Positions 11,530-35,618 of a stretch of DNA of 64,000 nucleotides are shown here, piece after piece (position 1 is the stretch's first letter; every line of letters begins with the position of its first letter). The notes beneath the pieces are model-generated. The model did not search any database, was not told where the DNA came from, and was given only the letters and a program-made list of their open reading frames with translations. A program made the translations under genes and the position numbers. The DNA comes from an archaeon (GTDB lineage: Archaea; Iainarchaeota; Iainarchaeia; Iainarchaeales; Iainarchaeaceae): the NCBI GenBank assembly GCA_035289485.1, contig DATDXA010000031.1, positions 27,807 through 91,806 of the forward strand, written 5' to 3'.

Positions 11530-12126
11530 TCATTTCGTAAAACTTTTCCCAGTCACCCGGTTCCTGAAAATTCTCCAGCCATAAACCGTGTATGCCTTTG
11601 CCCTGTTTTTTTTCCACATTACGTGAAATTTCCTGATTTCATCACTCAATTGTTCATGCGTCGGGGGGAACGGAGAGCAGGCATACTGCAATCCCGCAAG
11701 GGACGGGCCCATCTCCTTGTACATTTTTCTGACGTCCTCTGGCATTTTCCAATAATCCTGCTTTACGAGTGGCCTAACTCCCACCAAAGTGAGCTTTCCG
11801 GAAAGCCAGTCTATGATTTGCGGGACCTCGTCAATGTGATATTTTCTCAGGAATTTGCCGACCGGCGTTACCCGGTTATCCTCTTTTTTCAGTTTTTCGA
11901 TTGCGTGGTCACCTGCCATGACATGCATGTAATCAGTGTGCGCACCGCGCTTCATTGTCCGAAGTTTCCTGATTATAATAGGTTTCCCTCCTTTTCCGAC
12001 ACGCACCTGTGCGTGAATCGGGCCCAAATCGGAAAAAGTCTTCAGCTTCATACGAAAAAAATGCCTTAAGTTAAGAAAAACCATCCGGTTCCCGGCATCC
12101 CTTACCAAAATTCTTAAATAAACCAA
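11530..12126 (-). CDS. Bacterial-type sugar phosphotransferase (PglC/WbaP C-terminal catalytic domain family), apparently lacking the N-terminal membrane helix
   Basis: IRKLRTM...GKFLRKYHIDEVPQIIDWLSGKLTLVGVRP matches the KFRTM...DELPQ...SLVGPRP motifs of pfam02397-type sugar transferases. No hydrophobic N-terminus. Confidence 0.7.
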   Translation of the reverse strand: MVYLRILVRDAGNRMVFLNLRHFFRMKLKTFSDLGPIHAQVRVGKGGKPIIIRKLRTMKRGAHTDYMHVMAGDHAIEKLKKEDNRVTPVGKFLRKYHIDEVPQIIDWLSGKLTLVGVRPLVKQDYWKMPEDVRKMYKEMGPSLAGLQYACSPFPPTHEQLSDEIRKFHVMWKKNRAKAYTVYGWRIFRNRVTGKSFTK

Positions 12127-12143: not shown

Positions 12144-12404
12144 ATGGCTCGCCACGATGACGAAGAGACAACGCTTGAGGGCAGCAGGTTCTGGGACGCC
12201 GGAAAGATAATGCTCGTGGTTGTTTTCGTGGTAGGATTTATCGCAGGCGCATTCGTCACAAACAAATTCATTGACAATAATGCCCTCACAACAACGCAGG
12301 CCGATTCAAATTCACTTTTAGAGCAGAACCGCTTCCTTGATGAGCGCAACGATTCCCTGTATAGCTGCCTTACAAATTATGGCATAGACCCGAATTCGTG
12401 CTAG
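12144..12404 (+). CDS. Small hypothetical membrane protein
   Basis: Single predicted TM helix (IMLVVVFVVGFIAGAFV). 86 aa. Confidence 0.35.
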   Translation: MARHDDEETTLEGSRFWDAGKIMLVVVFVVGFIAGAFVTNKFIDNNALTTTQADSNSLLEQNRFLDERNDSLYSCLTNYGIDPNSC

Positions 12405-12407
12405 GCC

Positions 12408-13037
12408 TTAAGAAACACGCCCGCGCTTTTTCTTGCGGTAGTGCTTTGAGTTGAAGTGCTCCCGCAGCTCCTCAATCTGGCTTTTTGGCATCTTAATTTC
12501 ATTATCCTTCACCGCTTTTTCTATCCGCGCCGCAATATTCTCCCCGGCCCCTTCAAGCCTTTTTTGTGTTTCAACCATTATCTGCTGCGCCTTCTCAGAG
12601 CGCGCCTCGTGCAGTGCCTTCTCAACCTCGTGCAATAAATCAATCATCTCAGAGCTTGCCGCGTGCAAATCCTTCTGCAGATGGCCCGCCCTTTTTAGGT
12701 TATTTGAAAAATGTGATTTCTCCTTGCGCGCTTTCCTTGCAATATCAAGCGCGTCATCAAGGAGCGCATGTATTTTTTTCCCCGCATTTCCCGCAAGGCT
12801 TCCGTGCGCGCGCACAGCCTCTTCCATTTCGTGCAGCGACTCTTCCACGGATTTTTCGAGATTTACAAGCGTAAGCTTTGTATGGATCGCAGACCTTATC
12901 TCATTGTACTCTTTTCTTTCAATGAGCCTGCGCGCCATTTTTGTTTCCAGGGCGTACGCCTTTTTGAGAAGCGCCTCGCGCTCCTTTTCAAGCGAGGGTA
13001 TCTTGTCCGCGCCAAACATCAATTCAAACGGGTTCAT
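12408..13037 (-). CDS. Hypothetical coiled-coil protein
   Basis: 209 aa, Glu/Lys/Ala-rich and helical, ending in the basic tail KKKRGRVS. Confidence 0.4.
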   Translation of the reverse strand: MNPFELMFGADKIPSLEKEREALLKKAYALETKMARRLIERKEYNEIRSAIHTKLTLVNLEKSVEESLHEMEEAVRAHGSLAGNAGKKIHALLDDALDIARKARKEKSHFSNNLKRAGHLQKDLHAASSEMIDLLHEVEKALHEARSEKAQQIMVETQKRLEGAGENIAARIEKAVKDNEIKMPKSQIEELREHFNSKHYRKKKRGRVS

Positions 13038-13086: not shown

Positions 13087-13449
13087 TTATTTCACAAATT
13101 CCGTATTTCCCATTCCCCTAAAATCATTGTCGCCTGTGAGGAATTTCATTCCGCGCTTTTCTGCAAGTGTATAGCCCACGCAATCCGAATATGAGAGTGC
13201 CTTCTTTTTGTGCGCGTGCCGCAGTTTTGCAGCCTCAAATAGCTCGTTCTTTTCAATTTCCACAATGTTCAGGTTAAGCTCTGCATATTTTTCCTCGACT
13301 TTTGCGCTCTCGTGGTATTTTAGCATATAATAAAGCAGTTCCACGGCGTTAAATGCCGACGTATTTATCGTTTCGTTTAGGTATTTTCTATAATTCGGGT
13401 TGCCCTGCAACATTTCAATTATGGCGTATGTATCGAAAAAATACATCAC
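13087..13449 (-). CDS. vapC: PIN-domain toxin (VapC family)
   Basis: MMYFFDTYAIIE N-terminal acidic motif and a GDNDF-type C-terminal motif. Overlaps the upstream antitoxin by 4 nt. Confidence 0.75.
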   Translation of the reverse strand: MMYFFDTYAIIEMLQGNPNYRKYLNETINTSAFNAVELLYYMLKYHESAKVEEKYAELNLNIVEIEKNELFEAAKLRHAHKKKALSYSDCVGYTLAEKRGMKFLTGDNDFRGMGNTEFVK

Positions 13450-13667
13450 CAGTCACTTTCCTTTCTTATTTCATCCTTAATTTTCTGCGCGTCAAGCTTC
13501 CATCCTTTAAGCGAACCAAACACCTTTGGATTGGGCGTCTTCTTTTTTCTCAATTCCACAATGATTTCCTCATCAGGCCCGATTTTTTCGAGTGCGACAA
13601 TTTCCTTAGGTATCCTAAATCCTATGCTGTTCCCCCAGCTCCTTGTTTTTGCGACAATTTCAACCAT
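13446..13667 (-). CDS. vapB: AbrB/SpoVT/MazE-type antitoxin (VapB)
   Basis: SWGNSIGFRIPKEIV swapped-hairpin motif. 73 aa. Confidence 0.7.
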   Translation of the reverse strand: MVEIVAKTRSWGNSIGFRIPKEIVALEKIGPDEEIIVELRKKKTPNPKVFGSLKGWKLDAQKIKDEIRKESDW

Positions 13668-13788: not shown

Positions 13789-16700
13789 ATGGGAAAAAAA
13801 CTCCTGCCTTTGCTGCTGCTCTTTTCGCTTGTTTTTGCAGGCTGCCTTGCCAACCCGACAACCGAAGACCGCCTCTCCTGCCTCGAACTCACATCATATG
13901 CTTTCACATCAATCCCCCAATGCAAAACGCAGGATGAGTGCTTTTCGCGCGCACAGGCTGCTCTTGGTTTTGATGAATCCTCCCTTAACTCCATTACCCG
14001 TGAAGAGCTCCTAGGCGCAAAAAACCATCTCGCGCGCTCATGGCTCTTTCTCAATAACGCAAGGGCGAATCTCAAAAACATCCATGCCTTATGCTACTCC
14101 GAGAGCTATTTGGGAATTCCAATGGAAGTGAATGAGCTCAATTCAAATCTCACAACCGTTGGAAAAGAAATAGATTTCTTCAACAAATCCGCGGCGCGCG
14201 CAATCAACACAGAGCTCACTTCAATGGAACTAGATGACATCAATGTGATTGCGCAAGAGCCGCTCTTTGATGATTACTCAGTTCTAAACCAGAATGTGGT
14301 GGATTTTTCGGCGCACAATTCCTCCGGTAAAACCTACGCCTCACGGTTCATCCGCGAGGCCGAAAAATTCAACACAATCGCGCAAACACTAAGCCTTCAG
14401 GGCACACTGCAGCAAACAAGCCTTTTTGGAATAGTTTCAGAAAACAAATCCGCGGCAAAAGAACTGCTAGCCGAATCATCAAAAAAGAGGGATTTTCCGC
14501 TGCAAATAATCGCGCCGGTTTTTTATGGCATTTCAGATTTCCTGCGTGATTTTTTTGCGCTCGGAGGCTCTCTGCAGTCCCTAAAAGCCCTGCCCTCATT
14601 TGATGTGCTATCCTCAATCAACAGCCTCGTGGGAAGCGACAACTCCGCCGCATCTGAATTCTTCTCAGTATTCAAGTCAGATGCGGAGCACAGGAATTTA
14701 CTGAACCTGAAAAACTCCGGCAAGATGCAGCGGGCAAGTTCAGAACTGCCATTGCTTGAATCCGGGCTTGAAATGATTTCCGCTTCCCTCAAATCAATTT
14801 ACACGCAGGATTACCTTGATGCCGGCCTTGCATCCTCGGGTTTTGAGGAATTTCCCGTATCCGAACCGGATCCGCGCAATTTCTATTCTGCTTATTCTGC
14901 AAGGATAAATTTCGTAAAATCGAGGCTGCGCTCCCTTGAGCAGGCGGAGTTTCTTGGCACAATAACCCTTGGCGCAAAAACAACAGAACTTATCGAAATA
15001 CTAGAAGAGAATTCGCGCATTGCAAATGAAATGGATTATTTCACGAGGCTCTCATCCGGCGCCCTGTCCGCATGCGCAGAAAGCCTCTTGCTCGCAGAAT
15101 CAAAAATTTCCTCAAAAGAATTTGAATCGGGAGATGCCGCCGTACTCTCACTCAAGGCAAAGCTGGCTTCCGAGATTTCGGATTTCAAAGCGCAAAACCG
15201 ACTCTCAGGGTGCATTGCAGCGCTTGCGGATTTTCGCAGGCTCGAAGAATACATTAAAAGCGAAAACCCAAGTGCAAAAGCAGCCGAACTGATTGCAGCG
15301 TGCATAATTGATGCGCAGCAGCTCGGCCCTTTTGCGCAATCAGCGGAACTTTCCGCGCAGCTAAATGCCCTAAACAAAATAGTGCCGCCATATGCTAACC
15401 CCGAACTTGTCCTATCTTCCTGCACAAGCTTAAAACAGAGGCTTCTAACCTCCGCGCAATCCTCAGCCGAATCCGCTTCCGCAACACAAAAATTTTCCAC
15501 ACTCTCAAATTACGTCTCAATTCTTGCGCAATTTGCAGCGAAATTTCCCTCTCTTCCATCGGAGCCCGCGGCAAAAAAACTCCAGAATTCTTTCACGGAA
15601 ATTTCCTCAAATTTTACTGATTCCGGCATCAAGAGCGAATCAATTGCGCAAGCGTCCGAACTTGGCGCAAAGCTCGAAAGCCTCAATGCGGATGCAGAGC
15701 AAACACTCAAATCACTTGCCTCAGAGGCGGTGGAAAAATATTCCAAAATAGATTACCCGCAAAACCCGAACCCTCTTCTAATCCCTTCTGGTGTGCTTTC
15801 TGCTTCACAATCCTTTGCGAGAATTTCGTTTGAAAATATCCCCCGCGAAATTCCCCTGTCCGTTATTTCCGCAATAAGCCTGAATTCGCGGGATGCCGCC
15901 GCTGTTTTCTCCACAGGAAATATCGGCTTTGCAGCCCAGGGCGAGAAAACATCCCTGCGTTTTACCGGCCTTCTGCCCGGCATAAATTCAATAGTGCTTG
16001 ATCTCAATGCATTCGCCCAAAGCGCGGGAGCAAAAAATCCCGAAATTCCGCTAAGTGCCGGCGCGGAAAAAATAATCTCTGAAAAAGACTCCATCCTGAA
16101 AAACGCCGCACAATTTTCAGGCGACAAAAAACCCGAGATTGATTTTTTCTCCCAAAAAATAGATTTCCTTGCAAAGCAGGGGCTTTTGGATGATGCGGCA
16201 AAGGCGCTTGCGCTGCTTAAGGAAACTTATTCGGGCGCGGAAGTGCAGGCACAGGAGGCGCTAAAAAAGAAAGCCGATTCATACGCCGAGAAATTCGGGC
16301 AGCTTGCAGCCCTGCGCACCTCCCTTGCAAAGAATTCGAAAGATTTGCTTGATAATTTTTCCTCGCTTGGCGCAGCAATTCCCGCAGAAATTGCCGCATA
16401 TATCCCGATTACAGGGCAGCGCGCAAAAGAACTCTCTGTGCTTGCAGCAAAACAAATTCCGCAGGAAAAGGAATTTGCAGCCCTTATGCAAAAAGGCGAT
16501 TTTGCAGGCGCCATATCGCTTGCCGAAAAAACAGGGCTTGATGAACAAATAACGCTGCTTGATTCTGCTAACAGCGAATCGGAAAATGCCATTGAAAAAA
16601 TCAGGCAGAACGCAATCTCCTCATACGAACTCGCTTCAGAAAAAAGCAAATCTTCTCCTGCGAGTGCCGCTGCCGAGCAGCTTCTCTTAAAATCCAGGGA

Positions 16701-16953
16701 TTCTTTGGGGAAAAAATCCTACCTAAGCTCCCTGCTAAATTCCTCAAATGCGCTTGCTGTTCTCCCTTCGGGCAACCAAAACCTTTTCGGGGGTTTTGAA
16801 ATTCCGCTTCCGGTTTACCCGCTCGCTCTTGTGGTTGTCGCTGCAGGAATTTATGCGTGGAAAAAGAAATCCGTTCAAAAGCCCGCAGAGCCTTCAAGAG
16901 TAAAAAAAGCAAATGAAGAAAATCAGGAAGATGCAGAGCCGCTTCTTTTCTAA
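13789..16953 (+). CDS. Large (1054 aa) exported Ala/Ser/Leu-rich protein with N-terminal signal peptide plus lipobox-like Cys and a C-terminal transmembrane anchor
   Basis: MGKKLLPLLLLFSLVFAGC signal/lipobox, low-complexity predicted-helical body, and C-terminal LALVVVAAGIYAWKKK followed by an acidic tail. Confidence 0.7.
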   Translation: MGKKLLPLLLLFSLVFAGCLANPTTEDRLSCLELTSYAFTSIPQCKTQDECFSRAQAALGFDESSLNSITREELLGAKNHLARSWLFLNNARANLKNIHALCYSESYLGIPMEVNELNSNLTTVGKEIDFFNKSAARAINTELTSMELDDINVIAQEPLFDDYSVLNQNVVDFSAHNSSGKTYASRFIREAEKFNTIAQTLSLQGTLQQTSLFGIVSENKSAAKELLAESSKKRDFPLQIIAPVFYGISDFLRDFFALGGSLQSLKALPSFDVLSSINSLVGSDNSAASEFFSVFKSDAEHRNLLNLKNSGKMQRASSELPLLESGLEMISASLKSIYTQDYLDAGLASSGFEEFPVSEPDPRNFYSAYSARINFVKSRLRSLEQAEFLGTITLGAKTTELIEILEENSRIANEMDYFTRLSSGALSACAESLLLAESKISSKEFESGDAAVLSLKAKLASEISDFKAQNRLSGCIAALADFRRLEEYIKSENPSAKAAELIAACIIDAQQLGPFAQSAELSAQLNALNKIVPPYANPELVLSSCTSLKQRLLTSAQSSAESASATQKFSTLSNYVSILAQFAAKFPSLPSEPAAKKLQNSFTEISSNFTDSGIKSESIAQASELGAKLESLNADAEQTLKSLASEAVEKYSKIDYPQNPNPLLIPSGVLSASQSFARISFENIPREIPLSVISAISLNSRDAAAVFSTGNIGFAAQGEKTSLRFTGLLPGINSIVLDLNAFAQSAGAKNPEIPLSAGAEKIISEKDSILKNAAQFSGDKKPEIDFFSQKIDFLAKQGLLDDAAKALALLKETYSGAEVQAQEALKKKADSYAEKFGQLAALRTSLAKNSKDLLDNFSSLGAAIPAEIAAYIPITGQRAKELSVLAAKQIPQEKEFAALMQKGDFAGAISLAEKTGLDEQITLLDSANSESENAIEKIRQNAISSYELASEKSKSSPASAAAEQLLLKSRDSLGKKSYLSSLLNSSNALAVLPSGNQNLFGGFEIPLPVYPLALVVVAAGIYAWKKKSVQKPAEPSRVKKANEENQEDAEPLLF

Positions 16954-16954
16954 A

Positions 16955-18172
16955 TCATTTCTTCAAATAAAAGTAGGCGAAAACACCAAGCGAAATCAGC
17001 GCAAGTATTGCAGAGCCGATTATTTCAATCCCTATTCCCTTCTGCAATGTCACAGTTGTGGTTTCGCACTCAAGCAGGCGCGATTCATACTCTGCCGCGC
17101 ACCCAAGTTCGTAATTGCCAGCGCTCAGGCCTTTCACGCTGAAAACAACATCCTGCGAAGCATTTGGTTCAAGCGTGCCAATTGATTTGGATTTTTCCCC
17201 GGTAACTTCAAGGCCCGTAAGAGGCGTTATTGCTACGCTAGAAACATTTTCCTTGCTTATATTTTGCACCGTGATTTTGAGCGGAATGCTCCCCCCAGTG
17301 TAGAGCTTGTCATTATCCAGCGCGACTTTTACCGAAATCTTGTGCGGCGGCTCAACCGCCCCAAGATCTGGCCTGTTTGTGAGCATCCTCTCTTCCTCAC
17401 CAAAAACATTTGTAAATGCCATGACCGAGGGGAGCAGCGTGAAGGGCACTGCCTTGTGCGCTACAATAAAATATGAAATGCTCAGTTCCCCAGGCTTTGC
17501 GCAGTTTCCAAGCGCATCCCGCTCAGAGCACTTTGGCACTGTTCCGCTCTTTGAAGTGATTCCGTCAAGCACGCTAACTTCAGGAGCCGCCCTTTCAAGC
17601 TCGGCTTTTCTATAGCTTAGTGAAACCGTTGCATCTTCAGTTCCAAAATTTCTTGCAACTGAAGTGATTTTGAACGGCACTCCCACATATGGCGCGTAAG
17701 TGTCAAGGTCCATTTTGAAGCCTTTCTCCTGCGGGAAATAAGCTCCCGTATAAACCCCGAATTTCGAATCCGCAAAAACCGTTATCGCATTCACGGTGTA
17801 AGAAGTCTGGCCGCAAACCGTGACGCTGTTATTTTCCTTCAAAAGCCCCTGGGGCACCGGGATTCTCACAACCCCGTTCTGGAAATCGGCGTATGTAAGC
17901 TCTGCAATCTTTTGCGTGTTGAATAAAACATTGATTTTCGCGTTGCTCTTTGGCACGGGCGCGAGATTTGCATTGAGTGAAATTATCTGAAACATCTCTG
18001 CGTTGATGTCGCCTGAGTAAATAAAATCAAAATTTGTGCACTTGTGCACATTAACCCCGCTTATGTAGAAATCCTGGTAGCCTTGGTCGTGGAAAGTGAA
18101 TTCCTGCACAACCGCTGCTGAGGTTATGTAGCTGAAAAATACTAGTGCAAATAAAATAAGGAATTTTTTCAT
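16955..18172 (-). CDS. Exported hypothetical protein with signal peptide and C-terminal TM anchor (Thr/Val/Ser/Gly-rich)
   Basis: MKKFLILFALVFFSYITSAAV signal and C-terminal IIGSAILALISLGVFAYFYLKK. Its stop codon is 1 nt from the stop of the convergent 1054-aa gene. Confidence 0.65.
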   Translation of the reverse strand: MKKFLILFALVFFSYITSAAVVQEFTFHDQGYQDFYISGVNVHKCTNFDFIYSGDINAEMFQIISLNANLAPVPKSNAKINVLFNTQKIAELTYADFQNGVVRIPVPQGLLKENNSVTVCGQTSYTVNAITVFADSKFGVYTGAYFPQEKGFKMDLDTYAPYVGVPFKITSVARNFGTEDATVSLSYRKAELERAAPEVSVLDGITSKSGTVPKCSERDALGNCAKPGELSISYFIVAHKAVPFTLLPSVMAFTNVFGEEERMLTNRPDLGAVEPPHKISVKVALDNDKLYTGGSIPLKITVQNISKENVSSVAITPLTGLEVTGEKSKSIGTLEPNASQDVVFSVKGLSAGNYELGCAAEYESRLLECETTTVTLQKGIGIEIIGSAILALISLGVFAYFYLKK

Positions 18173-18176
18173 TCGG

Positions 18177-18704
18177 TCACTTCTTTCTTTTAGTTTTCCT
18201 GGAAAGTTCCTTCAAAGGCTTTGCGCGCAGGAACAGTTCAGTAATTATTGAATCCGTTGTTTCTTTAATAGTTTTCCTGTTCTCAAGCTCGATGATTTTT
18301 GCCTTTGCATAGTTGCGAGCGGCATGCTTTTTGCAGTAATCTATCCCTTCGCAGAACACATTGTCCTGCACCTTTTCATCCCTGTATCCGCGCAGTTCAA
18401 GCCTTGCCCCTAATCTCTCAGGGTTCAGGCGCAGCAGCACGCAAAAATCAAACTTGCCCTTTATTTCGCAGAGCATATGCCCCTCAACAATGATGTTTTT
18501 TTCCTTTGCAAGGAGTTTATTTAGCCTCGATTCTAGTTTTTCAATCGGCACCACGAGTTCATTTTCCGCGGCGTCAAACTCCCCGATTCCTTCGCGCAGC
18601 GAGAATTCTTTCTCATTGAGGACCTTATGCCCGAGCTCCTGCCCAAGCTTTTTTGCAATGGTGGTTTTGCCAACCCCCGGGGTTCCTGTTATGCAGATTC
18701 GCAT
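18177..18704 (-). CDS. Fap7/hCINAP-like putative adenylate kinase (P-loop NTPase)
   Basis: MRICITGTPGVGKTT Walker A at the extreme N-terminus and about 175 aa, as in archaeal Fap7-type kinases. Confidence 0.7.
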   Translation of the reverse strand: MRICITGTPGVGKTTIAKKLGQELGHKVLNEKEFSLREGIGEFDAAENELVVPIEKLESRLNKLLAKEKNIIVEGHMLCEIKGKFDFCVLLRLNPERLGARLELRGYRDEKVQDNVFCEGIDYCKKHAARNYAKAKIIELENRKTIKETTDSIITELFLRAKPLKELSRKTKRKK

Positions 18705-21353: not shown

Positions 21354-24300
21354 TTACTTCAACCTTACCGAATCCAAATTCCTTATCGCCTGCGAGCTTA
21401 TCCCGAACTTTTGCGAAAAGTGCTTTGCAAGCTCAACACATTTCTCGGCTTCGCCGTGATCTGTAAGTATTCTCTTCGGCTTGGGCTTTAGGTTTCTCAC
21501 ATACGCAGAGAGCTGCATGCGATCAGAGTGCCCTGAAAACCCATCAAGCCTTTCAATCCTAAGATTCACATTCAGTTTTCTTGTCCTTCCGGCATTATCC
21601 GTAATCGGCAGGCTCTTTACTCCGCTTAGAACCTTTCTTCCAAGCGAGCCTTCACCCTGGTAACCTACAAAAGCAAGTGTATTGACCGGGTTCTCCGCGA
21701 GGCGGTAGAAGTACTGAACGCTTGCTCCGCCAGTTAGCATTCCGCTAGAAGCCAGAATTATTGCTTTCCCGTTCTGTGCAATTGCGTCCCTGTCCTCCGG
21801 CTTTGCAACCTGGAAAATATCTGAAGTGAAGGGCGAATCGTTTTGCAAAACCCTCTTCTGAACTCCCGTGCGCAAATACTCAGGATATGCCGTGTGTATT
21901 GCCGAGCTCTCCTTGGTCATTCCATCAATATACACTTTGACTTCAGGGTCAATTAGGCCTTTTCTGTAATAATTCTCAATTACAAGCTGAATCTCCTGCG
22001 CCCTTCCGACAGCAAACACGGGCACCAAAATAGAGCCGCCCTGATTCACAGTTTCTTGTATGATTTTCAAAAACCTCGCTTCCGTGTCCTCACGCGCGGT
22101 TTGAATGTCATCCTTTCCGCCGTATGTGCTCTCAACAATAAGGGTTTCAAGCCTTGGATAATTTATGTCAACATTATTGAAGAGCCTGCTAAAGCCGTAC
22201 TTGATGTCTGCGCTGTAAACCAAGTTGTGCGCCCCCTCTCCAATATGAAGGTGCACTGATGCGCTTCCGAGCACATGTGCCGCATTATGGAATGTAAGCC
22301 TCATATCCGGCGCAATATCAGTAACTTCGCGGTAATCGCGTGTGATGCAGTACTTGAGCATTTCCTTAACATCGCGCTCAGAATAAGGCGCTTCCTTATT
22401 CTCCTTTGCCATGATGTCAAGATAGTCAAAGAGAAGCAGCGCGCCAAGATCACGTGTCGGCTCGGTGTTGTGAAGGCAAATTGGCGCTTCCCCGCCAACA
22501 AAATTCTGGTCATCTTCAACCGAAAAGTCGTAGACAAACCCATTAGTTGGCTCTACCATATTAATCTCTGTAATCGGGAGGAATGCCAGGTCGGTTTCTG
22601 AAAACTCCATTAACTTTTCCCTGGTTTCCTGCGCCACCAAAGAAGTGCCATTGGCACTTTTTACCCAATTCTTATTTAGAAGTTCTGCAAGCCTTTGCTT
22701 GGTGACATGCTTTCTATTTTTCAGCCTGTGGTAAAACCACTCTTGCCCAAAACCCACTTCTTTTAAGGGCAAAATATCGCACCCTTTCTTATCTAATCTT
22801 CTTTTTCCAAAGAACTCGGATAAATTTATTGTGATGCTGTAAACCGTATTTTTTGTTTTTGCTTTCGGCATCGCAATAGTAAATTTGCTGTATGTAAAGC
22901 CGAGTTGCGAGCATAAATATGACAAATCCGAGGCCAAATCCTTGCTGACAGTTGTTGCGGTAGCTGTCTTGTTCAGTTGGTTTATTGTGCCATCACCTTC
23001 AAAATAGGCTTCCAGAAAAGCTAACTTTAGTTCGTCCCCGACGTTGAATACTATTTCTGGTATTCTTTTACTTGTTGCTTTTTTATAGCCTGGGAAAAAT
23101 TCTTTCTTGAATACGTCCAACAAATTTTTAGAATTTATTGCCACCCTAAGCCTTGTTTCCTGGCTTATGCTATCTTTTGCCTCAATGTCGAACACTTTTC
23201 TAACCGCATTTTTAAGTTCCTCTACAATTCCCCTGTCTTTGAGCCCGAAGGTGAGCCTTATCCCCCTTTTCTCAAAATGACCTTCTGCAGTAAAATATCC
23301 TAAAATTTTCATGAGGTCTGTGTTCACGCTGATTTTGCCCGGGAGCTTGATTTTGGATCCTTTGCCATTGTATTGCTCCAAGCCAATCGTTTCAATTTTT
23401 TCATTTCCTGACGGGAGTTTGTGCGGGGCAATAAGATAGTCCCCAATCTTTAATTCGCTGACTTTGGCATCAGAGATTTTTCCATTTTTGAGGACAAATA
23501 CGCTGTGGGATCCCGTTACCTTTACCTTTCTTTTGTTCCTTGTCACAATTTCAAATATTTTGCCTTCAACTTTGTGCCTTATTACTTTTTTGACTTTCTT
23601 AAAATTAATTTTCTTGTCTTTTGAGAAAGCAGGCACGTATAACTCCTGATTTGGCTGTGCCGCCATGTATTCGTTTTCAGGATAAAAATCCACATTCTTC
23701 GAGTTGCCGATGATTTTATCTATCACTGCGCCAATTTTTTCTATTTTTATGCGGCCATTTTCCTTTATCATAACCGGTTCTGCATAGTCCACACTCATGT
23801 ACACCGGGCCGCGGTAACCCAGTTTGAACAGGTAAGGCAAAAATCCTATGTGGTCCATGTGCGTGTGGCTAATCACAACCGCATCAAGCTCATTTATCGG
23901 GAAGCGAATCGCGTCAAGATAGGGAAATGCGTCCTCAGAGTTTTGCGCCGCAACATTGATTCCACAGTCCATTAATATTTTTGTCCTGCGGGTTTCAAGC
24001 ATTATGCAGCTTCTTCCAACCTGCCTAAATCCTCCAAGAGGAGTTAGCCTAATCCAGCTCGGGCCCGGCTTTTCAGAATAAATTTTCTTTGCAGTTTCCT
24101 GCAAAATCTTTTTGCGCTCGGAAGCATATTTCACAAGGTGGTGCCTAATCCCGCGCAATATTTCACTTGGCGAAGTCGGGCTTCTCAAAATTTTAGGGGT
24201 CCATCCGGTTTGCAGTATAATTTCTTTTGTTGTCATTCCGCCCTTGCCAATTACAAGGCCGGGCTTAAGCGCTTCAATTACAACTTCACTAAAAGCTTCC

Positions 24301-24581
24301 ATGAACTGAATGTCCGCGATTTTGGCGTCCTCAGGGACAATTTTCATTATCTTTTCGCGCGCCTCTTTTTCCTCAAGCAGCAGAGATTTGTCCGCGCGGA
24401 TATTCACTTTCTTCTTTAGCTGGTGCGCAATCGCGCGCACATAATCCTCGTTCTCGTGGAAAGCGCGGGGATTTTTTGTATAAATCGCAATCTCAGGCCC
24501 TTCAAGGTCGACTGATGAGACTTCGGCTTCCTTTGGCACGATTGCCGCAACAGTTTCCTTTACTTCCTTTAGATATTCCAT
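21354..24581 (-). CDS. aCPSF1 / FttA (KH-KH, metallo-beta-lactamase, beta-CASP, RMMBL ribonuclease; archaeal transcription termination factor) interrupted by an intein
   Basis: N-terminal KH domains (VIGKGGMTTKEI), HTHMDH zinc motif, and GPVYM then intein then TEPTRDL, which aligns with ...GPVYCTRPTRDL... of intein-free aCPSF1. C-terminal beta-CASP/RMMBL region. 1075 aa = 259 + 446 + 370. Confidence 0.9.
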   Translation of the reverse strand: MEYLKEVKETVAAIVPKEAEVSSVDLEGPEIAIYTKNPRAFHENEDYVRAIAHQLKKKVNIRADKSLLLEEKEAREKIMKIVPEDAKIADIQFMEAFSEVVIEALKPGLVIGKGGMTTKEIILQTGWTPKILRSPTSPSEILRGIRHHLVKYASERKKILQETAKKIYSEKPGPSWIRLTPLGGFRQVGRSCIMLETRRTKILMDCGINVAAQNSEDAFPYLDAIRFPINELDAVVISHTHMDHIGFLPYLFKLGYRGPVYMSVDYAEPVMIKENGRIKIEKIGAVIDKIIGNSKNVDFYPENEYMAAQPNQELYVPAFSKDKKINFKKVKKVIRHKVEGKIFEIVTRNKRKVKVTGSHSVFVLKNGKISDAKVSELKIGDYLIAPHKLPSGNEKIETIGLEQYNGKGSKIKLPGKISVNTDLMKILGYFTAEGHFEKRGIRLTFGLKDRGIVEELKNAVRKVFDIEAKDSISQETRLRVAINSKNLLDVFKKEFFPGYKKATSKRIPEIVFNVGDELKLAFLEAYFEGDGTINQLNKTATATTVSKDLASDLSYLCSQLGFTYSKFTIAMPKAKTKNTVYSITINLSEFFGKRRLDKKGCDILPLKEVGFGQEWFYHRLKNRKHVTKQRLAELLNKNWVKSANGTSLVAQETREKLMEFSETDLAFLPITEINMVEPTNGFVYDFSVEDDQNFVGGEAPICLHNTEPTRDLGALLLFDYLDIMAKENKEAPYSERDVKEMLKYCITRDYREVTDIAPDMRLTFHNAAHVLGSASVHLHIGEGAHNLVYSADIKYGFSRLFNNVDINYPRLETLIVESTYGGKDDIQTAREDTEARFLKIIQETVNQGGSILVPVFAVGRAQEIQLVIENYYRKGLIDPEVKVYIDGMTKESSAIHTAYPEYLRTGVQKRVLQNDSPFTSDIFQVAKPEDRDAIAQNGKAIILASSGMLTGGASVQYFYRLAENPVNTLAFVGYQGEGSLGRKVLSGVKSLPITDNAGRTRKLNVNLRIERLDGFSGHSDRMQLSAYVRNLKPKPKRILTDHGEAEKCVELAKHFSQKFGISSQAIRNLDSVRLK
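22467..23804 (-). mobile_element. Intein (446 aa, Ser1...His-Asn, +1 Thr) with LAGLIDADG homing-endonuclease domain, inserted in aCPSF1
   Basis: Begins SVDYAEPVMI and ends ICLHN followed by T. LAGLIDADG motifs ILGYFTAEGHF and LKLAFLEAYFEGDGTI. AT-richer than the exteins. Confidence 0.8.
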
Positions 24582-33281: not shown

Positions 33282-35618
33282 TTACGCCGCCTTCTCAGCA
33301 ATTTCCTTCTCAATAAGCGACCTTATCTTCTCCGCATCGAACCCGAGCTTAATGAGCCTTGTCTGGCCCTTGATTCCTTTCCCGGAATTTGTCGAGTGTA
33401 TGAGCCCGTACATTTCAAGTTCGGAGATGTATTCGCGGTACCAGCGCGCGCTCACCGTGGTTTCCTTGAATTTTTTTGAAATGCGGCAGTACTCATCGTA
33501 AATTTCCCCAGAGAACAAAACCCCTTCCTCGCTCTCGCCGGTTATTTTTTGCATCGGTTTTTTGTTCAGCGCAAGCGCCGCAATCGCATACAAAACAAGC
33601 TGCTGCTGCTCAGGAAGAGTAGAAACCATATTGAAAATTATCTCCTCTTCTACGGTTTTCTTCGCCTTTTTAACTTCGGCATCCGTAACTTTGCCAAGCG
33701 ATTTCTTATCGGCAATCTCACCTGCTCGCAGCATGAGCATTACCGCAGTGCGCGCATCCCCAGATTCCTGCGCTGCCACTGCTGCCGCGAGATGTATTGC
33801 GGATTCTTCAATGGTATTTGGCCGAAAAGCCGATTGCACGCGTTGCTTTATGATTTCCGTGAGCTCCTGCGCATTATATGGCGGGAACACAAGCTCGTGC
33901 TCGCAGAGGCTGCTTTTGGTGCGCGGGTCAAGCCTGTCTTTAAACATCACATTGTTTGAAATGCCAATTATTGATATGCCGCCATCCTTTATTTCATCGT
34001 TCGCGCGCGTGAGGCCATAAATTAATTCATCCAGGTCCTTTACTTTATCAACTTCATCCAGTACGAGTATCAGTTGCTTTCCCCTGCGCGCGTAATCAAC
34101 CAGCTTTTCGTAAATGAAAGCCGCGGAAAAGCCCAAAAAATTCTCCTCAGGGTACAATTCCTTTACAATCTTTATGAGGATGCGGTATTTGCTGTTGTGA
34201 TTTCTGCAGTTGACGTAATTTCCCTCAATTGGCATGTTCTTTGAGATTGCAAAATCAAGAAGCTGCTGCATCACATGCTTTGTAACCGAAGTTTTCCCGG
34301 TATTATGGGAAATAATTCCATTTGCGATAAAATTATGGTTTTTTGGAACCGTCAAATCATACACAAAATCTTCAAATGCCTCTTCAATCTTTGCAATTTT
34401 TGAGGCGGAAAAGCCCGTTTCATTAATTGGCATTGTTTTGACATACTTTGTAATCATTATCCGCAGCCTTTCTTGTTTTACAGTGCTATAAAACCCTATT
34501 TTATTGTAAAATTTGAATATGTTTTCCTGTCCCTGTATATATAGTCGGTAGGCGTCAAATATTTTTCCGTTTAATTTGGCTGGCTTGCTTCTGACTTTGC
34601 ATCTGATTCCTTCCTGGTATAAAATATATGCGACCTGCTGCAGGAATTTTTTTGAATTCGAGTAGTACTCTATCTGAAATGTTTGCTGGCTTACAGTGCC
34701 ATCGCCGGAAAACAAAGCCTTCAAAAACTCCCTTTGGATTGTGGGTGAGGCTTGTAAAATCGATTCGGGAACTTCAATAATCCGGCTTTTCTCTCCAAAA
34801 GGGACTCCAAGTGAGTTCAGAGTTTGGCACGCGTTTTGTGAAATCATGTTGACGTGTGCACACCTGTCCTTTGGATAAATTATTGACGGGGTTCCGCCAA
34901 AGACTTTTGCCAAATCCTCCTGCACTTTTTTAAGCAAATTAGCATCAATGCTGAAATATCTATATCTTTGCCTGTCCGCATTATAGTAATAACCTCTGCC
35001 ATCCTTTGCTTTTTTCTGTTTTCTATTAAGACTTCCGTCGCTTAAAGTAAAACCCAGCAATCTGGCCAGTGCAAGTGGCATTTCATGGTCATTTAAGGAT
35101 GGCAAATCATATCCAAGTGCAAGTTCATCAGCTATCTTCAATTGATTGGACTTTTTCCACTCCATATCCGAAGTTAAAAGAGGATGGTCCCGTGTAACAG
35201 TCAACTCATAGCCGTTTTCAAGTGTTATTTTAAGCAATTTGTCATTATTCTTGTATTTCAGGAAGACAAAATCAGACCACTCATATTTTTTTATTTTCTT
35301 GTTGAATGTGGCCACTAAATCAGTTAGCATATCAACGTCTCTGATTTTTTTCCACCCATTACTCGTGTAAACAAGGCTGTCGCCTGCAATGCAACCCGTT
35401 TTTCCGTAAATGAAAACATTGTCGGATTTCTTGCCGCGGATTGATTCTGAGAGGATTGAGGAGATTTGTTCTATATACTTGTCGCGGAAAGGGAGTATTT
35501 TAGGAGTATAATGCGTGGTTATGATGTTTCTGTCCAAAAAAATGGTTTCGCGCGCGAACTCGCGCTCAAAAATGTTCACACGTTCAGAACTAACCGTAGA
35601 TACAGAAGTATTTTGCAA
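33282..35618 (-). CDS. Orc1/Cdc6 replication initiator interrupted by an intein in the Walker A P-loop. TTG start as tracked.
   Basis: Extein reads ...NVFIYGKTG then intein then TGKTSVTKHV (P-loop GKTGTGKTS once spliced). LVLDEVD Walker B and a C-terminal winged helix. 778 aa = 75 + 364 + 339. Confidence 0.9.
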   Translation of the reverse strand: MQNTSVSTVSSERVNIFEREFARETIFLDRNIITTHYTPKILPFRDKYIEQISSILSESIRGKKSDNVFIYGKTGCIAGDSLVYTSNGWKKIRDVDMLTDLVATFNKKIKKYEWSDFVFLKYKNNDKLLKITLENGYELTVTRDHPLLTSDMEWKKSNQLKIADELALGYDLPSLNDHEMPLALARLLGFTLSDGSLNRKQKKAKDGRGYYYNADRQRYRYFSIDANLLKKVQEDLAKVFGGTPSIIYPKDRCAHVNMISQNACQTLNSLGVPFGEKSRIIEVPESILQASPTIQREFLKALFSGDGTVSQQTFQIEYYSNSKKFLQQVAYILYQEGIRCKVRSKPAKLNGKIFDAYRLYIQGQENIFKFYNKIGFYSTVKQERLRIMITKYVKTMPINETGFSASKIAKIEEAFEDFVYDLTVPKNHNFIANGIISHNTGKTSVTKHVMQQLLDFAISKNMPIEGNYVNCRNHNSKYRILIKIVKELYPEENFLGFSAAFIYEKLVDYARRGKQLILVLDEVDKVKDLDELIYGLTRANDEIKDGGISIIGISNNVMFKDRLDPRTKSSLCEHELVFPPYNAQELTEIIKQRVQSAFRPNTIEESAIHLAAAVAAQESGDARTAVMLMLRAGEIADKKSLGKVTDAEVKKAKKTVEEEIIFNMVSTLPEQQQLVLYAIAALALNKKPMQKITGESEEGVLFSGEIYDEYCRISKKFKETTVSARWYREYISELEMYGLIHSTNSGKGIKGQTRLIKLGFDAEKIRSLIEKEIAEKAA
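34302..35393 (-). mobile_element. Intein (364 aa, Cys1...His-Asn, +1 Thr) with LAGLIDADG homing-endonuclease domain, inserted in Orc1/Cdc6
   Basis: Starts CIAGDSLVYTSNG and ends NGIISHN followed by T. LAGLIDADG motifs LARLLGFTLSDGSL and FLKALFSGDGTV. AT-rich relative to exteins. Confidence 0.8.

What the first reader, a model, noticed from the sequence alone, without database searches (positions are those of the whole stretch)
13789..18172. Convergent pair of large surface proteins; the 1054-aa member is a helical Ala/Ser-rich lipobox protein with a C-terminal membrane anchor
The 1054-aa protein has a signal peptide ending in a lipobox-like LFAGC, an extremely Ala/Ser/Leu/Glu/Lys-rich predicted-helical body, and a C-terminal TM helix plus acidic tail. 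That architecture is reminiscent of stalk-like or tetrabrachion-type cell-surface scaffolds rather than beta-rich S-layer proteins. The convergent 405-aa protein is beta-type (Thr/Val/Gly-rich) with its own signal peptide and C-terminal anchor. The two stop codons are only 1 nt apart (TAA 16951-53; TCA/TGA 16955-57), so the transcripts must overlap or terminate inside each other. Neither protein has a recognisable family.
Basis: partly seen in the sequence, partly recalled or inferred. Interest (0 to 1): 0.5.

Follow-up and report, generated by a model that had tools for sequence, protein, structure and literature searches.

The report
Conserved DPANN archaeal envelope gene pair
Two real, tail-to-tail genes for membrane-anchored surface proteins (a large helical lipoprotein tethered at both ends and a three-domain beta-sandwich protein) form, together with a small membrane protein, a gene module conserved across tiny uncultured DPANN archaea; its function is unknown, but it is most likely a cell-envelope scaffold and not a coiled-coil stalk.

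Summary
ORFs 13789-16953(+) (1054 aa) and 16955-18172(-) (405 aa) exist, and their stop codons are 1 nt apart. Each protein has an N-terminal signal peptide and a C-terminal TM helix. The large protein is about 70% helical and the small one is all-beta.

- The large protein is not a stalk or tetrabrachion-like coiled coil. It has 42 short helices (median 14 aa, maximum 59), no heptad periodicity and no internal repeats. Fold searches match only single three-helix-bundle units.
- Its Ala/Ser richness is specific to this lineage.
- Tight convergent junctions are common in this compact (~92% coding) genome, so the 1-nt gap is not special.

What is new is that the pair is a conserved module. Homologues of both genes are adjacent in 14 distinct lineages (GC 25-58%). 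They occur in three relative orientations and in two unrelated neighbourhoods, usually with a ~90-aa bitopic protein upstream of the large gene. The lipobox Cys and the C-terminal TM helix of the large protein are conserved in every homologue, so both ends are membrane-tethered. The third domain of the beta protein is CARDB/DUF11-like.

The best reading is an extracytoplasmic, membrane-proximal envelope scaffold of Iainarchaeota-like DPANN archaea. The function is inferred, not shown.

The parts
13789..16953 (+). Gene for the 1054-aa large envelope protein ('big'). It has a Sec signal peptide with a lipobox, a helical-bundle ectodomain, one Ig-like domain, and a C-terminal TM helix with a short cytoplasmic tail.
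   Evidence: ORF. Full-length homologues. AF2 model pLDDT 71.8, 70% helix. No Pfam, NCBIfam or PDB relatives.
13789..13845 (+). Signal peptide ending in the lipobox FAGC. Cys19 is the predicted lipidated +1 residue.
   Evidence: Sequence MGKKLLPLLLLFSLVFAGC. Cys19 is invariant in the 18-sequence family alignment. A [LFTS][ASFCI]GC motif ends the N-terminal hydrophobic segment in all 14 lineages.
13846..14718 (+). N-terminal conserved ectodomain (aa ~20-310). It is the most conserved part and the only part detectably shared with the most distant homologues. It carries conserved Cys31/45/51/102.
   Evidence: Column identity is 0.60-0.72 here against 0.45-0.6 elsewhere. P0013 and the L019 homologue align only here. 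The invariant Cys residues are listed. Residues 150-292 have pLDDT <50 despite the conservation.
15745..16002 (+). Small Ig-like beta-sandwich domain (aa ~653-738) inserted in the helical ectodomain.
   Evidence: AF2 strands E653-738. The domain is absent from the shorter homologues P0011 and P0012.
16804..16860 (+). C-terminal TM helix (aa ~1006-1024), preceded by the EIPLPVYPL motif and followed by a KKK... tail.
   Evidence: Hydropathy segment 999-1024. AF2 helix 1013-1025. A C-terminal TM helix is present in all homologues.
16955..18172 (-). Gene for the 405-aa type-I membrane protein ('beta405'). It has a signal peptide, three beta-sandwich domains (~20-145, 150-275, 280-378; the third is CARDB/DUF11-like), and a C-terminal TM helix ending in KK.
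16951..16957 (.). Tail-to-tail junction: TAA, one base, then TCA (reverse TGA).
   Evidence: Comparable junctions in relatives have gaps of +4, +3, +24, +45, -8 and -4 nt. Other convergent junctions in the window are similarly tight.
12144..12404 (+). Gene for an 86-aa bitopic membrane protein ('tm86'), probably the third module component. It has an acidic N-terminus, one TM helix, and a ~45-aa C-terminal helix region with two conserved Cys.
   Evidence: Jackhmmer and HMM searches find homologues just upstream of, and co-directional with, the large gene in the window lineage and in L005, L016, L017 and L022. One is also found near the beta gene in L006. In L016 it lies between beta and big with 4-nt overlaps.
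18177..18704 (-). AAA_18 / Fap7-like putative kinase gene. It lies immediately upstream of beta405 on the same strand (4-nt gap), so it is a likely operon partner. It is context, not an envelope component.
   Evidence: Pfam AAA_18 E 1.2e-18 and NCBIfam PRK03839. The kinase-then-beta order, often with overlapping stop and start, holds in L001-L018, L020 and L022. It is absent from L019 and L021.
13087..13667 (-). VapBC-type toxin-antitoxin pair (PIN 13087-13449; AbrB-like antitoxin 13446-13667) inserted between tm86 and big. It is not part of the module.
   Evidence: Pfam PIN E 8e-14. Antitoxin ORF. It is absent at this position in L001 and L004, and a PemK toxin-antitoxin pair occupies the position in L003.

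Best explanation
The two ORFs are genuine, single-copy genes of a DPANN archaeon close to 'Candidatus Iainarchaeum'. Together with the small bitopic protein gene at 12144-12404, they form a conserved cell-envelope module.

Shown:
- Both proteins are exported and membrane-anchored.
- The large protein has a signal peptide ending in a lipobox Cys and a C-terminal TM helix, and both features are conserved in all homologues. Its ~980-residue ectodomain is therefore tethered to the membrane at both ends.
- That ectodomain is a non-repetitive array of short antiparallel helical bundles plus one Ig-like domain, with about four conserved Cys pairs.
- The 405-aa protein is a type-I membrane protein made of three beta-sandwich domains, each with a conserved Cys pair. 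The last domain is CARDB/DUF11-like.
- The genes remain adjacent through inversions and in unrelated neighbourhoods.

Inferred:
- The three proteins assemble on the outer face of the cytoplasmic membrane into a membrane-proximal scaffold, meaning an external membrane skeleton or pseudo-periplasmic spacer.
- The conserved N-terminal ~300-640 residues of the large protein would carry the interaction surface. Its variable C-terminal half would act as a spacer.
- The beta protein would act as a ~10-nm Ig-like pillar.
- Co-transcription of the beta gene with a housekeeping Fap7-like kinase gene suggests constitutive, growth-coupled expression.
- The tail-to-tail abutment of the stops is a by-product of genome compaction, so the 3' ends of the transcripts probably overlap by tens to a few hundred nucleotides.
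For: Real, conserved genes.

Taxon: 9 of ~185,000 species-representative genomes carry the large gene. All are 'Ca. Iainarchaeum' or unnamed archaeal MAGs. The window carries PolD, FttA, Orc1/Cdc6 and Hel308.

Module linkage:
- The order big(+), beta(-), kinase(-) holds in all 9 genome loci and in L001-L005.
- L018, L020 and L022 are convergent, with stop codons overlapping by 8 and 4 nt in L018 and L022.
- L017 is convergent with three genes inserted between the pair.
- L016 is co-directional in the order kinase, beta, tm90, big, with 4-nt overlaps. Its 1396-aa protein matches the family profile with hhalign probability 100%, E 1.8e-41.
- L019 and L021 are co-directional in the order big then beta. 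Their neighbourhood is different (TYW3, Elp3, MutS/L, TFIIE) and has no kinase. The big homologues there score E 2.6e-17 and 4.5e-29.

Dual anchoring.

Folds.

CARDB-type third domain.

Extracytoplasmic Cys pattern.

Surface-protein-like rate ranking (kinase 71-78% identity, beta 52-70%, big 34-50% between the same genomes).

Lipoprotein lipidation machinery (AliA) is reported as present in DPANN: PMC12462473.

Compaction explains the junction.
Against: - No experiment, expression data or interaction evidence exists, so the function is inference from architecture and context.
- Most sampled lineages share a broadly conserved housekeeping neighbourhood (TYW1, NFACT, PRC barrel, FttA, proteasome). 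Part of the adjacency could therefore be inherited synteny. An in-place inversion keeps neighbours adjacent without selection.
- Only L019 and L021, which share one neighbourhood, give truly independent context.
- In L006 the beta and tm genes occur with no large gene within 7 kb.
- tm86 was not detected in L015, L018, L019, L020 or L021.
- The AF2 model of the large protein has low global confidence (pTM 0.43). The best-conserved segment, residues 150-292, is modelled at pLDDT <50.
- Presence of AliA or another lipidation enzyme in this genome was not tested.
Confidence: 0.5

Rival explanations
1. The module is a host-attachment or cell-cell contact apparatus. DPANN archaea are mostly episymbionts. 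On this reading the fast-evolving, dual-anchored helical protein and the CARDB-type (cell-adhesion-related) beta protein mediate contact with, or membrane apposition to, a host cell.
Confidence: 0.2
2. The two genes are functionally unrelated neighbours. Their adjacency reflects inherited gene order in a slowly rearranging, compact chromosome region, and each protein acts on its own.
For: The whole region (NFACT, PRC barrel, TYW1, kinase, FttA, proteasome) is syntenic across most loci. In most lineages the genes are convergent and so not co-transcribed. L006 keeps the beta gene without the large gene.
Against: Adjacency survives in L019 and L021, where all flanking genes differ and the pair is co-directional 64-117 nt apart. 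In L016 the order beta, tm, big is co-directional with overlapping stop and start codons, typical of translational coupling. Adjacency is kept at 16-27% protein identity and across GC 25-58%.
Confidence: 0.15
3. The module is an accessory of a protein-export or secretion machine. The beta protein would be a TRAP-beta-like or BatD-like translocon or secretion-system subunit, akin to the putative archaeal secretion complex with Ig-like S-layer-like proteins predicted by Makarova et al. 2015.
For: 13 of 61 beta-family members hit Pfam TRAP_beta (best E 1.1e-7) and 20 of 61 hit BatD (best E 1e-8). The layout of signal peptide, Ig domain, TM helix and short tail matches TRAP-beta and BatD. Makarova 2015 and 2019 describe Ig-like membrane proteins in a putative secretion system, and a DPANN-specific secreted protein encoded next to arCOG02487.
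Against: These Pfam families all belong to the same CARDB/DUF11-type Ig fold, so the hits show fold rather than function. No MoxR ATPase, vWA, DUF58 or arCOG01314 gene is in any of the neighbourhoods examined. There is no linkage to SecY/SecE/SecDF; SecDF in the window is 30 kb away.
Confidence: 0.08
4. One reading: the large protein is a tetrabrachion-like or stalk-like coiled-coil scaffold projecting from the cell surface.
For: High helix content (70%) and a C-terminal TM anchor.
Against: The model has 42 helices with a median of 14 aa and a longest of 59 aa. Heptad or 11/3 periodicity is absent and there are no internal repeats. The N-terminal lipid anchor ties the distal end back to the membrane. 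No PDB sequence hit appears at E<=1, although tetrabrachion fragments should be in the PDB to my knowledge. Fold hits are antiparallel three-helix bundles.
Confidence: 0.03

Closest known systems
Archaeal/bacterial lipobox lipoproteins (archaeal AliA/AliB-dependent thioether-archaeol lipoproteins; PMC12462473)
   Same: The N-terminus has a positively charged n-region, a hydrophobic h-region and [LF][AS]GC with an invariant Cys at +1. The protein is predicted to be extracytoplasmic.
   Different: It also carries a conserved C-terminal TM helix, so both ends are anchored. The ectodomain is very large, non-enzymatic and helical, and is not a solute-binding protein. Lipidation was not demonstrated, and the lipidation enzyme was not looked for in this genome.
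Tetrabrachion (Staphylothermus marinus) and similar coiled-coil surface stalks
   Same: A large, helix-rich archaeal surface protein with a C-terminal membrane anchor.
   Different: There is no long continuous helix, no heptad or undecad periodicity, and no repeats. An N-terminal lipid anchor is present. The fold is antiparallel helical-bundle units, and there is no sequence similarity.
Spectrin-repeat / EzrA-type arrays of three-helix bundles, and helical-bundle surface coats (Borrelia Osp proteins, trypanosome ESAG6/VSG-like, Plasmodium RBP2b)
   Different: Identity is only 4-12%, so the resemblance is generic. There is no repeat periodicity. The protein sits on the extracytoplasmic side, whereas EzrA is cytoplasmic. 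The domain of life differs, and there is no evidence of homology.
CARDB / DUF11 / BatD / TRAP-beta Ig-like domain membrane proteins (including arCOG02487/arCOG02884 'S-layer-like proteins with Ig-like domain', Makarova 2015)
   Same: The third domain of the 405-aa protein belongs to this Ig-like superfamily. The layout of signal peptide, beta-sandwich domains, one C-terminal TM helix and a short basic tail is shared with BatD and TRAP-beta.
   Different: Two further N-terminal beta-sandwich domains have no family assignment. There is no MoxR/vWA/DUF58 (Bat-type) operon context. Instead the gene is always paired with the large helical lipoprotein. Membership in the arCOGs could not be tested.
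Two-component crenarchaeal S-layer SlaA/SlaB
   Same: A pair of adjacent genes for exported envelope proteins, at least one with beta-sandwich domains and a C-terminal TM anchor.
   Different: SlaA is a large beta-rich lattice protein without a TM helix, and SlaB has a coiled-coil stalk. Here the large partner is alpha-helical, anchored at both ends and not beta-rich. The genes are mostly convergent, and there is no sequence or fold match.

Membership tests
Lipobox lipoprotein (Sec-type) | An N-terminal signal peptide with a basic n-region and hydrophobic h-region, ending in [LVI...][ASTVI][GAS]-C with Cys within about 15-35 residues of the start | tested here: met
   MGKKLLPLLLLFSLVFAGC has Cys at position 19. 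Position -3 is Phe here and Leu in most relatives. Cys is invariant in 18 of 18 aligned sequences, and the motif is present in all 14 lineages.
Lipobox lipoprotein (Sec-type) | Covalent lipid on the +1 Cys, and presence of a lipidation enzyme (archaeal AliA or an equivalent) | not testable with these tools
   Only 64 kb of the genome is available, and no AliA model is in the libraries. The literature states that AliA occurs in DPANN (PMC12462473).
Tetrabrachion-type coiled-coil stalk | A long uninterrupted helix of hundreds of residues with heptad or undecad periodicity, forming a parallel oligomeric coiled coil | tested here: not met
   The longest predicted helix is 59 aa and the median is 14 aa. 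There is no 3.5 or 3.67 periodicity peak and no internal repeats.
Tetrabrachion-type coiled-coil stalk | Sequence or structural similarity to tetrabrachion | tested here: not met
CARDB (PF07705) domain protein | A match to the Pfam CARDB model above the gathering threshold | tested here: inconclusive
   The window protein scores 18.8 bits against a cut-off of 22.7 (E 0.002). 11 of 12 close and 32 of 61 broad family members hit CARDB, with a best E of 2.4e-10.
CARDB (PF07705) domain protein | An Ig-like beta-sandwich fold superposable on a solved CARDB domain | tested here: met
BatD / Bat (aerotolerance-type) operon or Makarova-2015 putative secretion system | Genomic association with a MoxR-type AAA+ ATPase, vWA-domain proteins and DUF58/arCOG01314 | tested here: not met
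   None of these genes appears in the window neighbourhood or in any of the 22 loci examined.
SlaA/SlaB-type two-component S-layer | A large beta-rich lattice protein without a TM helix, plus a stalk protein with a coiled coil and a C-terminal TM helix, encoded in one operon | tested here: not met
   The large partner is 70% helical with a TM helix. The small partner has no coiled coil. The genes are convergent in most lineages.
DPANN-specific cluster cls.004306 (NEQ255) 'secreted protein next to arCOG02487' | Sequence membership in the cluster or arCOG | not testable with these tools
   The cluster is described in PMC6393860. Neither the NEQ255 sequence nor the arCOG profiles were accessible.
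Archaeosortase substrates (PGF-CTERM and similar) | A C-terminal tripartite signal: a short motif (for example PGF), a TM helix and a few basic residues at the very C-terminus | tested here: not met
   NCBIfam, which to my knowledge includes the sorting-signal models, returned nothing. The large protein has a 30-aa tail after the TM helix. The EIPLPVYPL motif is restricted to the close lineage.

The most novel reading that the evidence does not exclude
DPANN archaea of the Iainarchaeota type, and related AT-rich lineages, possess a previously undescribed external membrane skeleton. A giant helical-bundle lipoprotein would be stapled to the membrane at both ends (thioether lipid at the N-terminus, TM helix at the C-terminus). 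It would work with an Ig-like pillar protein and a small bitopic adaptor. This assembly would replace or underlie an S-layer and shape these ultrasmall cells, or form the platform through which they dock to hosts.
Probability: 0.2. Interest if true: 0.75.

Novelty: new variant of a known kind. Interest (0 to 1): 0.45.

Why it matters
DPANN archaea are a large, almost entirely uncultured part of archaeal diversity. Their cell envelopes and host-contact structures are poorly understood, and few lineage-specific conserved genes are known for them (PMC6393860). This work turns two anonymous hypothetical ORFs into a defined two- to three-gene module. The module has a conserved and unusual dual-anchored architecture, is present in lineages spanning GC 25-58%, and has no Pfam or NCBIfam family. 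It gives concrete candidates for envelope proteomics, cryo-ET labelling and lipoprotein studies in DPANN. It also shows that the beta-protein family, with roughly a hundred or more 50%-identity clusters, deserves a family definition. The work does not reveal a new mechanism.

Tried and rejected
- Pfam, NCBIfam, PHROGs and PADLOC scans of the large protein returned nothing.
- PDB sequence-profile searches with 12- and 18-sequence alignments of the large protein gave only noise, such as designed PPR proteins, sigma factors and HA2.
- The AFDB libraries were not available.
- A profile re-search of the word-indexed protein database added no new homologues of the large protein. That index clearly under-reports the family, because distant homologues were later found through genomic context.
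- Coiled-coil and repeat tests were negative.
- Rfam and tRNA scans of the window were empty.
- Cluster look-ups for organism names of distant beta-family members returned no names.
- The 209-aa coiled-coil gene (12408-13037) was considered as a module member. It was rejected because it occurs only in close relatives (L004/L007, weakly in L012) and is absent elsewhere.
- The Bac_transf gene (11530-12126) is not conserved in the neighbourhood.
- Bat-operon or MoxR/vWA secretion-system membership was rejected for lack of context genes.
- A special role for the 1-nt stop spacing was rejected, because tight or overlapping convergent ends are common in this window and in relatives.
- A literature search found no description of these families.

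Full report

Yes. The ORF listing returns ORF 13789..16953 (+, 1054 aa, ATG start) and ORF 16955..18172 (-, 405 aa, ATG start). The junction reads ...ttc TAA a TCA ttt..., which is TAA at 16951-53 and TCA (reverse TGA) at 16955-57, with one base between them.

The composition of the large protein is S 13.1, L 12.8, A 12.8, E 7.8 and K 6.8 %. It has two hydrophobic segments, at residues 1-24 and 999-1024. The small protein has V 9.4, T 7.2 and G 7.2 %, with hydrophobic segments at 3-25 and 378-404.

The signal peptide of the large protein ends SLVFAGC, with Cys at position 19. Its tail after the TM helix is KKKSVQKPAEPSRVKKANEENQEDAEPLLF, which is basic first and then acidic.

The window is an archaeal chromosome. 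It carries PolD DP1/DP2, FttA/aCPSF1, Orc1/Cdc6, Hel308, SecDF, TYW1 and a Fap7-like kinase.

**2. Are they genes, and how widely do they occur?**

Both proteins have full-length homologues in uncultured archaeal MAGs. The large protein is 34-57% identical to them and the small one 42-70%. Alignments show strong conservation.

A scan of one genome per GTDB species found the large gene in 9 genomes. All are titled 'Candidatus Iainarchaeum' or unnamed 'archaeon' MAGs. That genus belongs to the phylum Iainarchaeota (Diapherotrites) in the DPANN group Nanobdellati.

An exhaustive HMM search with the small-protein family found 515 cluster representatives at E<=1e-3 and 98 at E<=1e-30. Most of the latter are full-length proteins of 380-430 aa. 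That family is therefore much larger than the word-indexed search suggested. The weaker matches include multi-domain CARDB proteins that do not belong to the family proper.

**3. Anatomy of the 405-aa protein**

The AF2 model is confident (pLDDT 82.5). It shows a signal peptide, three beta-sandwich domains (~20-145, ~150-275, ~280-378) and a TM helix at 382-404.

Pfam CARDB is sub-threshold in the window protein (E 0.002). It hits 11 of 12 close relatives and 32 of 61 broad family members, with a best E of 2.4e-10. The related models BatD (20 of 61), DUF11 (15) and TRAP_beta (13) also hit. The family profile also finds 3idu in the PDB at E 0.0012.

Domain 3 is therefore a CARDB/DUF11-type Ig domain. 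Domains 1 and 2 have no family. Each domain carries one Cys pair (C45/C120, C215/C224, C358/C369). C45 and C120 are invariant over 61 sequences. This fits an extracytoplasmic location.

**4. Anatomy of the 1054-aa protein**

The AF2 model (13-sequence alignment, pLDDT 71.8, pTM 0.43) is 70% helix and 4.6% strand. It has 42 helices with a median length of 14 residues, and the longest is 59 residues. One small beta-sandwich lies at ~653-738.

There is no heptad, 3.6 or 11/3 periodicity in the long helices. The protein has no internal repeats in a self-BLAST.

No Pfam, NCBIfam, PHROGs, PADLOC or PDB sequence relative exists.

The N-terminal ~300 residues are the most conserved part, with column identity 0.60-0.72 against ~0.45-0.6 elsewhere. 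They are the only part alignable to the most distant homologues. Oddly, residues 150-292 within this region are modelled at pLDDT <50. This is unexplained. It may reflect partner-dependent folding or the shallow alignment.

Nine Cys residues are present. C19, C45, C51, C102 and C475 are invariant, and C31, C429 and C545 are nearly so, over 18 sequences at 16-57% identity.

The tetrabrachion or stalk analogy is not supported.

**5. The dual anchor is the family signature**

In every homologue examined, the N-terminal hydrophobic segment ends in a lipobox-like motif. The motifs seen are FAGC, LAGC, LSGC, LCGC, FSGC, TSGC, LFGC, TIGC, LLSGC and SLFGC. For L019 the motif appears once its ORF is extended upstream of the called start. 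A TM helix followed by a basic tail closes the protein in every case.

In contrast, Ala/Ser richness tracks genomic GC. The L019 homologue (locus GC 25%) has A 2.1, S 4.7, E 15.8 and K 13.0 %.

Archaeal lipobox proteins are lipidated with thioether-linked archaeol by AliA/AliB, and AliA is reported as present in DPANN (PMC12462473). Lipidation of this particular protein is inferred.

**6. The pair is a conserved module, with a third member**

| Loci | Arrangement |
|---|---|
| 9 genome loci (L007-L015) and L001-L005 | big(+), beta(-), AAA_18/Fap7-like kinase(-) |
| L005 (within that set; most divergent) | big shares only its N-terminal 300 aa; beta partner is 26% identical (E 1e-39) |
| L018, L020, L022 | convergent; stop codons overlap by 8 nt (L018) and 4 nt (L022) |
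| L017 | convergent, with three genes inserted between the pair |
| L016 | same strand: kinase, beta402, 90-aa gene, 1396-aa gene, with 4-nt overlaps |
| L019, L021 | big then beta, co-directional, 64-117 nt apart; different neighbourhood (TYW3, Elp3, MutS/MutL, Trm56, TFIIE), no kinase |
| L006 | beta and tm genes present, no large gene within 7 kb |

The 1396-aa protein in L016 matches the family profile with hhalign probability 100%, E 1.8e-41, over 625 columns. The large proteins in L019 and L021 hit the family HMM at E 2.6e-17 and 4.5e-29.

The 86-aa ORF at 12144-12404 has an acidic N-terminus, one TM helix and a C-terminal helix with two Cys. It has homologues immediately upstream of the large gene in the window lineage and in L005, L016, L017 and L022.

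The window arrangement differs from L016 by an inversion of the tm-big segment. A VapBC pair (13087-13667) and a lineage-specific 209-aa coiled-coil gene (12408-13037) have since been inserted between tm86 and big.

One caveat applies. Most of these loci share a broadly syntenic housekeeping region, so only L019/L021, and to some degree L016, give independent support for selection on adjacency.

**7. The convergent junction**

Stop-to-stop spacing in relatives ranges from -8 to +45 nt in most lineages, and up to ~1 kb in a few. Within this window, seven other convergent pairs are 24 nt or less apart, and one overlaps by 14 nt. Coding density is about 92%. The 1-nt gap therefore reflects compaction.

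Oligo-T tracts, the usual archaeal intrinsic termination signal (established knowledge), lie inside the opposing genes. A T7 tract for the minus-strand transcript is at 16902-16908. A T5 tract for the plus-strand transcript is at 17192. Overlapping 3' ends are therefore likely, but this is not shown.

**8. How it most likely works**

Shown:
- all three proteins are membrane-anchored, with their bulk outside the cell;
- their Cys patterns are conserved;
- the large protein is anchored at both ends;
- gene adjacency is conserved;
- conservation ranks kinase, then beta, then tm, then big (78/70/54/50% identity to L004 and 71/52/40/34% to L001), which is typical of increasingly exposed surface proteins.

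Inferred: the proteins form a membrane-proximal extracellular scaffold. The large protein would lie on or arch over the membrane between its lipid and TM anchors. Its conserved N-terminal region would be the docking site. The beta protein would be a three-Ig pillar. The tm86 ectodomain helix would act as an adaptor.

Operon linkage of the beta gene to a housekeeping kinase gene suggests constitutive expression.

I put about 0.85 on the anatomy, about 0.7 on the functional linkage of the genes, and about 0.35 on the specific scaffold role. The overall figure is 0.5.

**9. Rivals**

- A host-contact or adhesion apparatus (0.2).
- Unrelated neighbours held together by synteny (0.15).
- A TRAP-beta-like or BatD-like secretion or translocon accessory (0.08). 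No MoxR, vWA or arCOG01314 context was found; see PMC5898192.
- A tetrabrachion-like stalk (0.03).

**10. Comparison with what is known, and novelty**

The closest known kinds are:
- lipobox lipoproteins, whose sequence features are met but whose chemistry is untested;
- CARDB/DUF11/BatD/TRAP-beta Ig-domain membrane proteins, where the domain-3 fold criterion is met;
- spectrin/EzrA-like bundle arrays and helical surface coats, where the resemblance is only generic.

Literature searches found no description of either family. [quoted passage not shown] S-layer-like proteins' (PMC6393860). I could not test it.

I rate this as a new variant of a known kind: archaeal membrane-anchored envelope proteins, here with an unusual conserved dual-anchored helical member and a conserved module. 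Interest is 0.45. It is a solid and previously unrecognised conserved module in a poorly known group, but it has no demonstrated function or new mechanism.

Noticed in passing
window 21354-24581 (-) and 33282-35618 (-): The FttA/aCPSF1 transcription-termination factor gene (1075 aa, against ~630 aa in relatives) and the Orc1/Cdc6 gene (778 aa) each carry an intein with a LAGLIDADG homing-endonuclease domain. The FttA orthologues in L001, L005, L006, L016, L018 and L020 are intein-free (629-632 aa).
   Followed up: partly
window 13087-13667 (-): A VapBC-type toxin-antitoxin pair (PIN toxin 13087-13449; AbrB/SpoVT-like antitoxin 13446-13667, 4-nt overlap) is inserted between the small membrane-protein gene and the large gene. 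In L003 a PemK-type pair occupies the same slot, so this intergenic position seems to be a recurrent landing site for toxin-antitoxin modules.
   Followed up: partly
window 13789-16953, residues ~150-292 (nt ~14236-14664): The most conserved segment of the large protein (motifs LFDDY, LNQN..DFS, TYASRF, DFP, FFAL.GS, LPSF, NSAAS.FF, HR) is predicted at pLDDT <50, while less conserved helical bundles reach 85-93. It could be a partner-dependent or dynamic region.
   Followed up: no
window 18177-18704 (-) and 16955-18172 (-); L006, L016, L017, L020: The beta-protein gene is almost always directly downstream of a Fap7/AAA_18-type kinase gene, often with overlapping stop and start codons. This persistent operon joins a cytoplasmic ribosome-biogenesis-type kinase with an exported membrane protein, and the reason is unknown.
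   Followed up: partly
window 12408-13037 (-): A 209-aa highly charged coiled-coil protein with no family lies divergent from the large gene. It is conserved only in the closest relatives (52% identity in L004/L007, weak in L012) and gives faint ZorA/MotA-like and MCE-like noise hits only.
   Followed up: partly
window 11530-12126 (-): A Bac_transf (initiating sugar-phosphate transferase) domain ORF of only 198 aa with a TTG start. It matches profile positions 31-136 of 179 and may be truncated. It is not present at this position in the relatives.
   Followed up: no
whole window: Convergent gene pairs are packed very tightly, with gaps of -14, 1, 3, 8, 9, 15, 19 and 24 nt, at about 92% coding density. 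No tRNA or Rfam RNA was detected in 64 kb. Cumulative GC skew falls monotonically across the window.
   Followed up: partly
L016 9215-13674; beta family P0026-P0174: The word-indexed protein search missed most of both families. The exhaustive HMM search found about 100 full-length beta-family clusters at 50% identity, and large-protein homologues of 1136-1414 aa were recovered only through genomic context. Neither family has a Pfam or NCBIfam model.
   Followed up: yes
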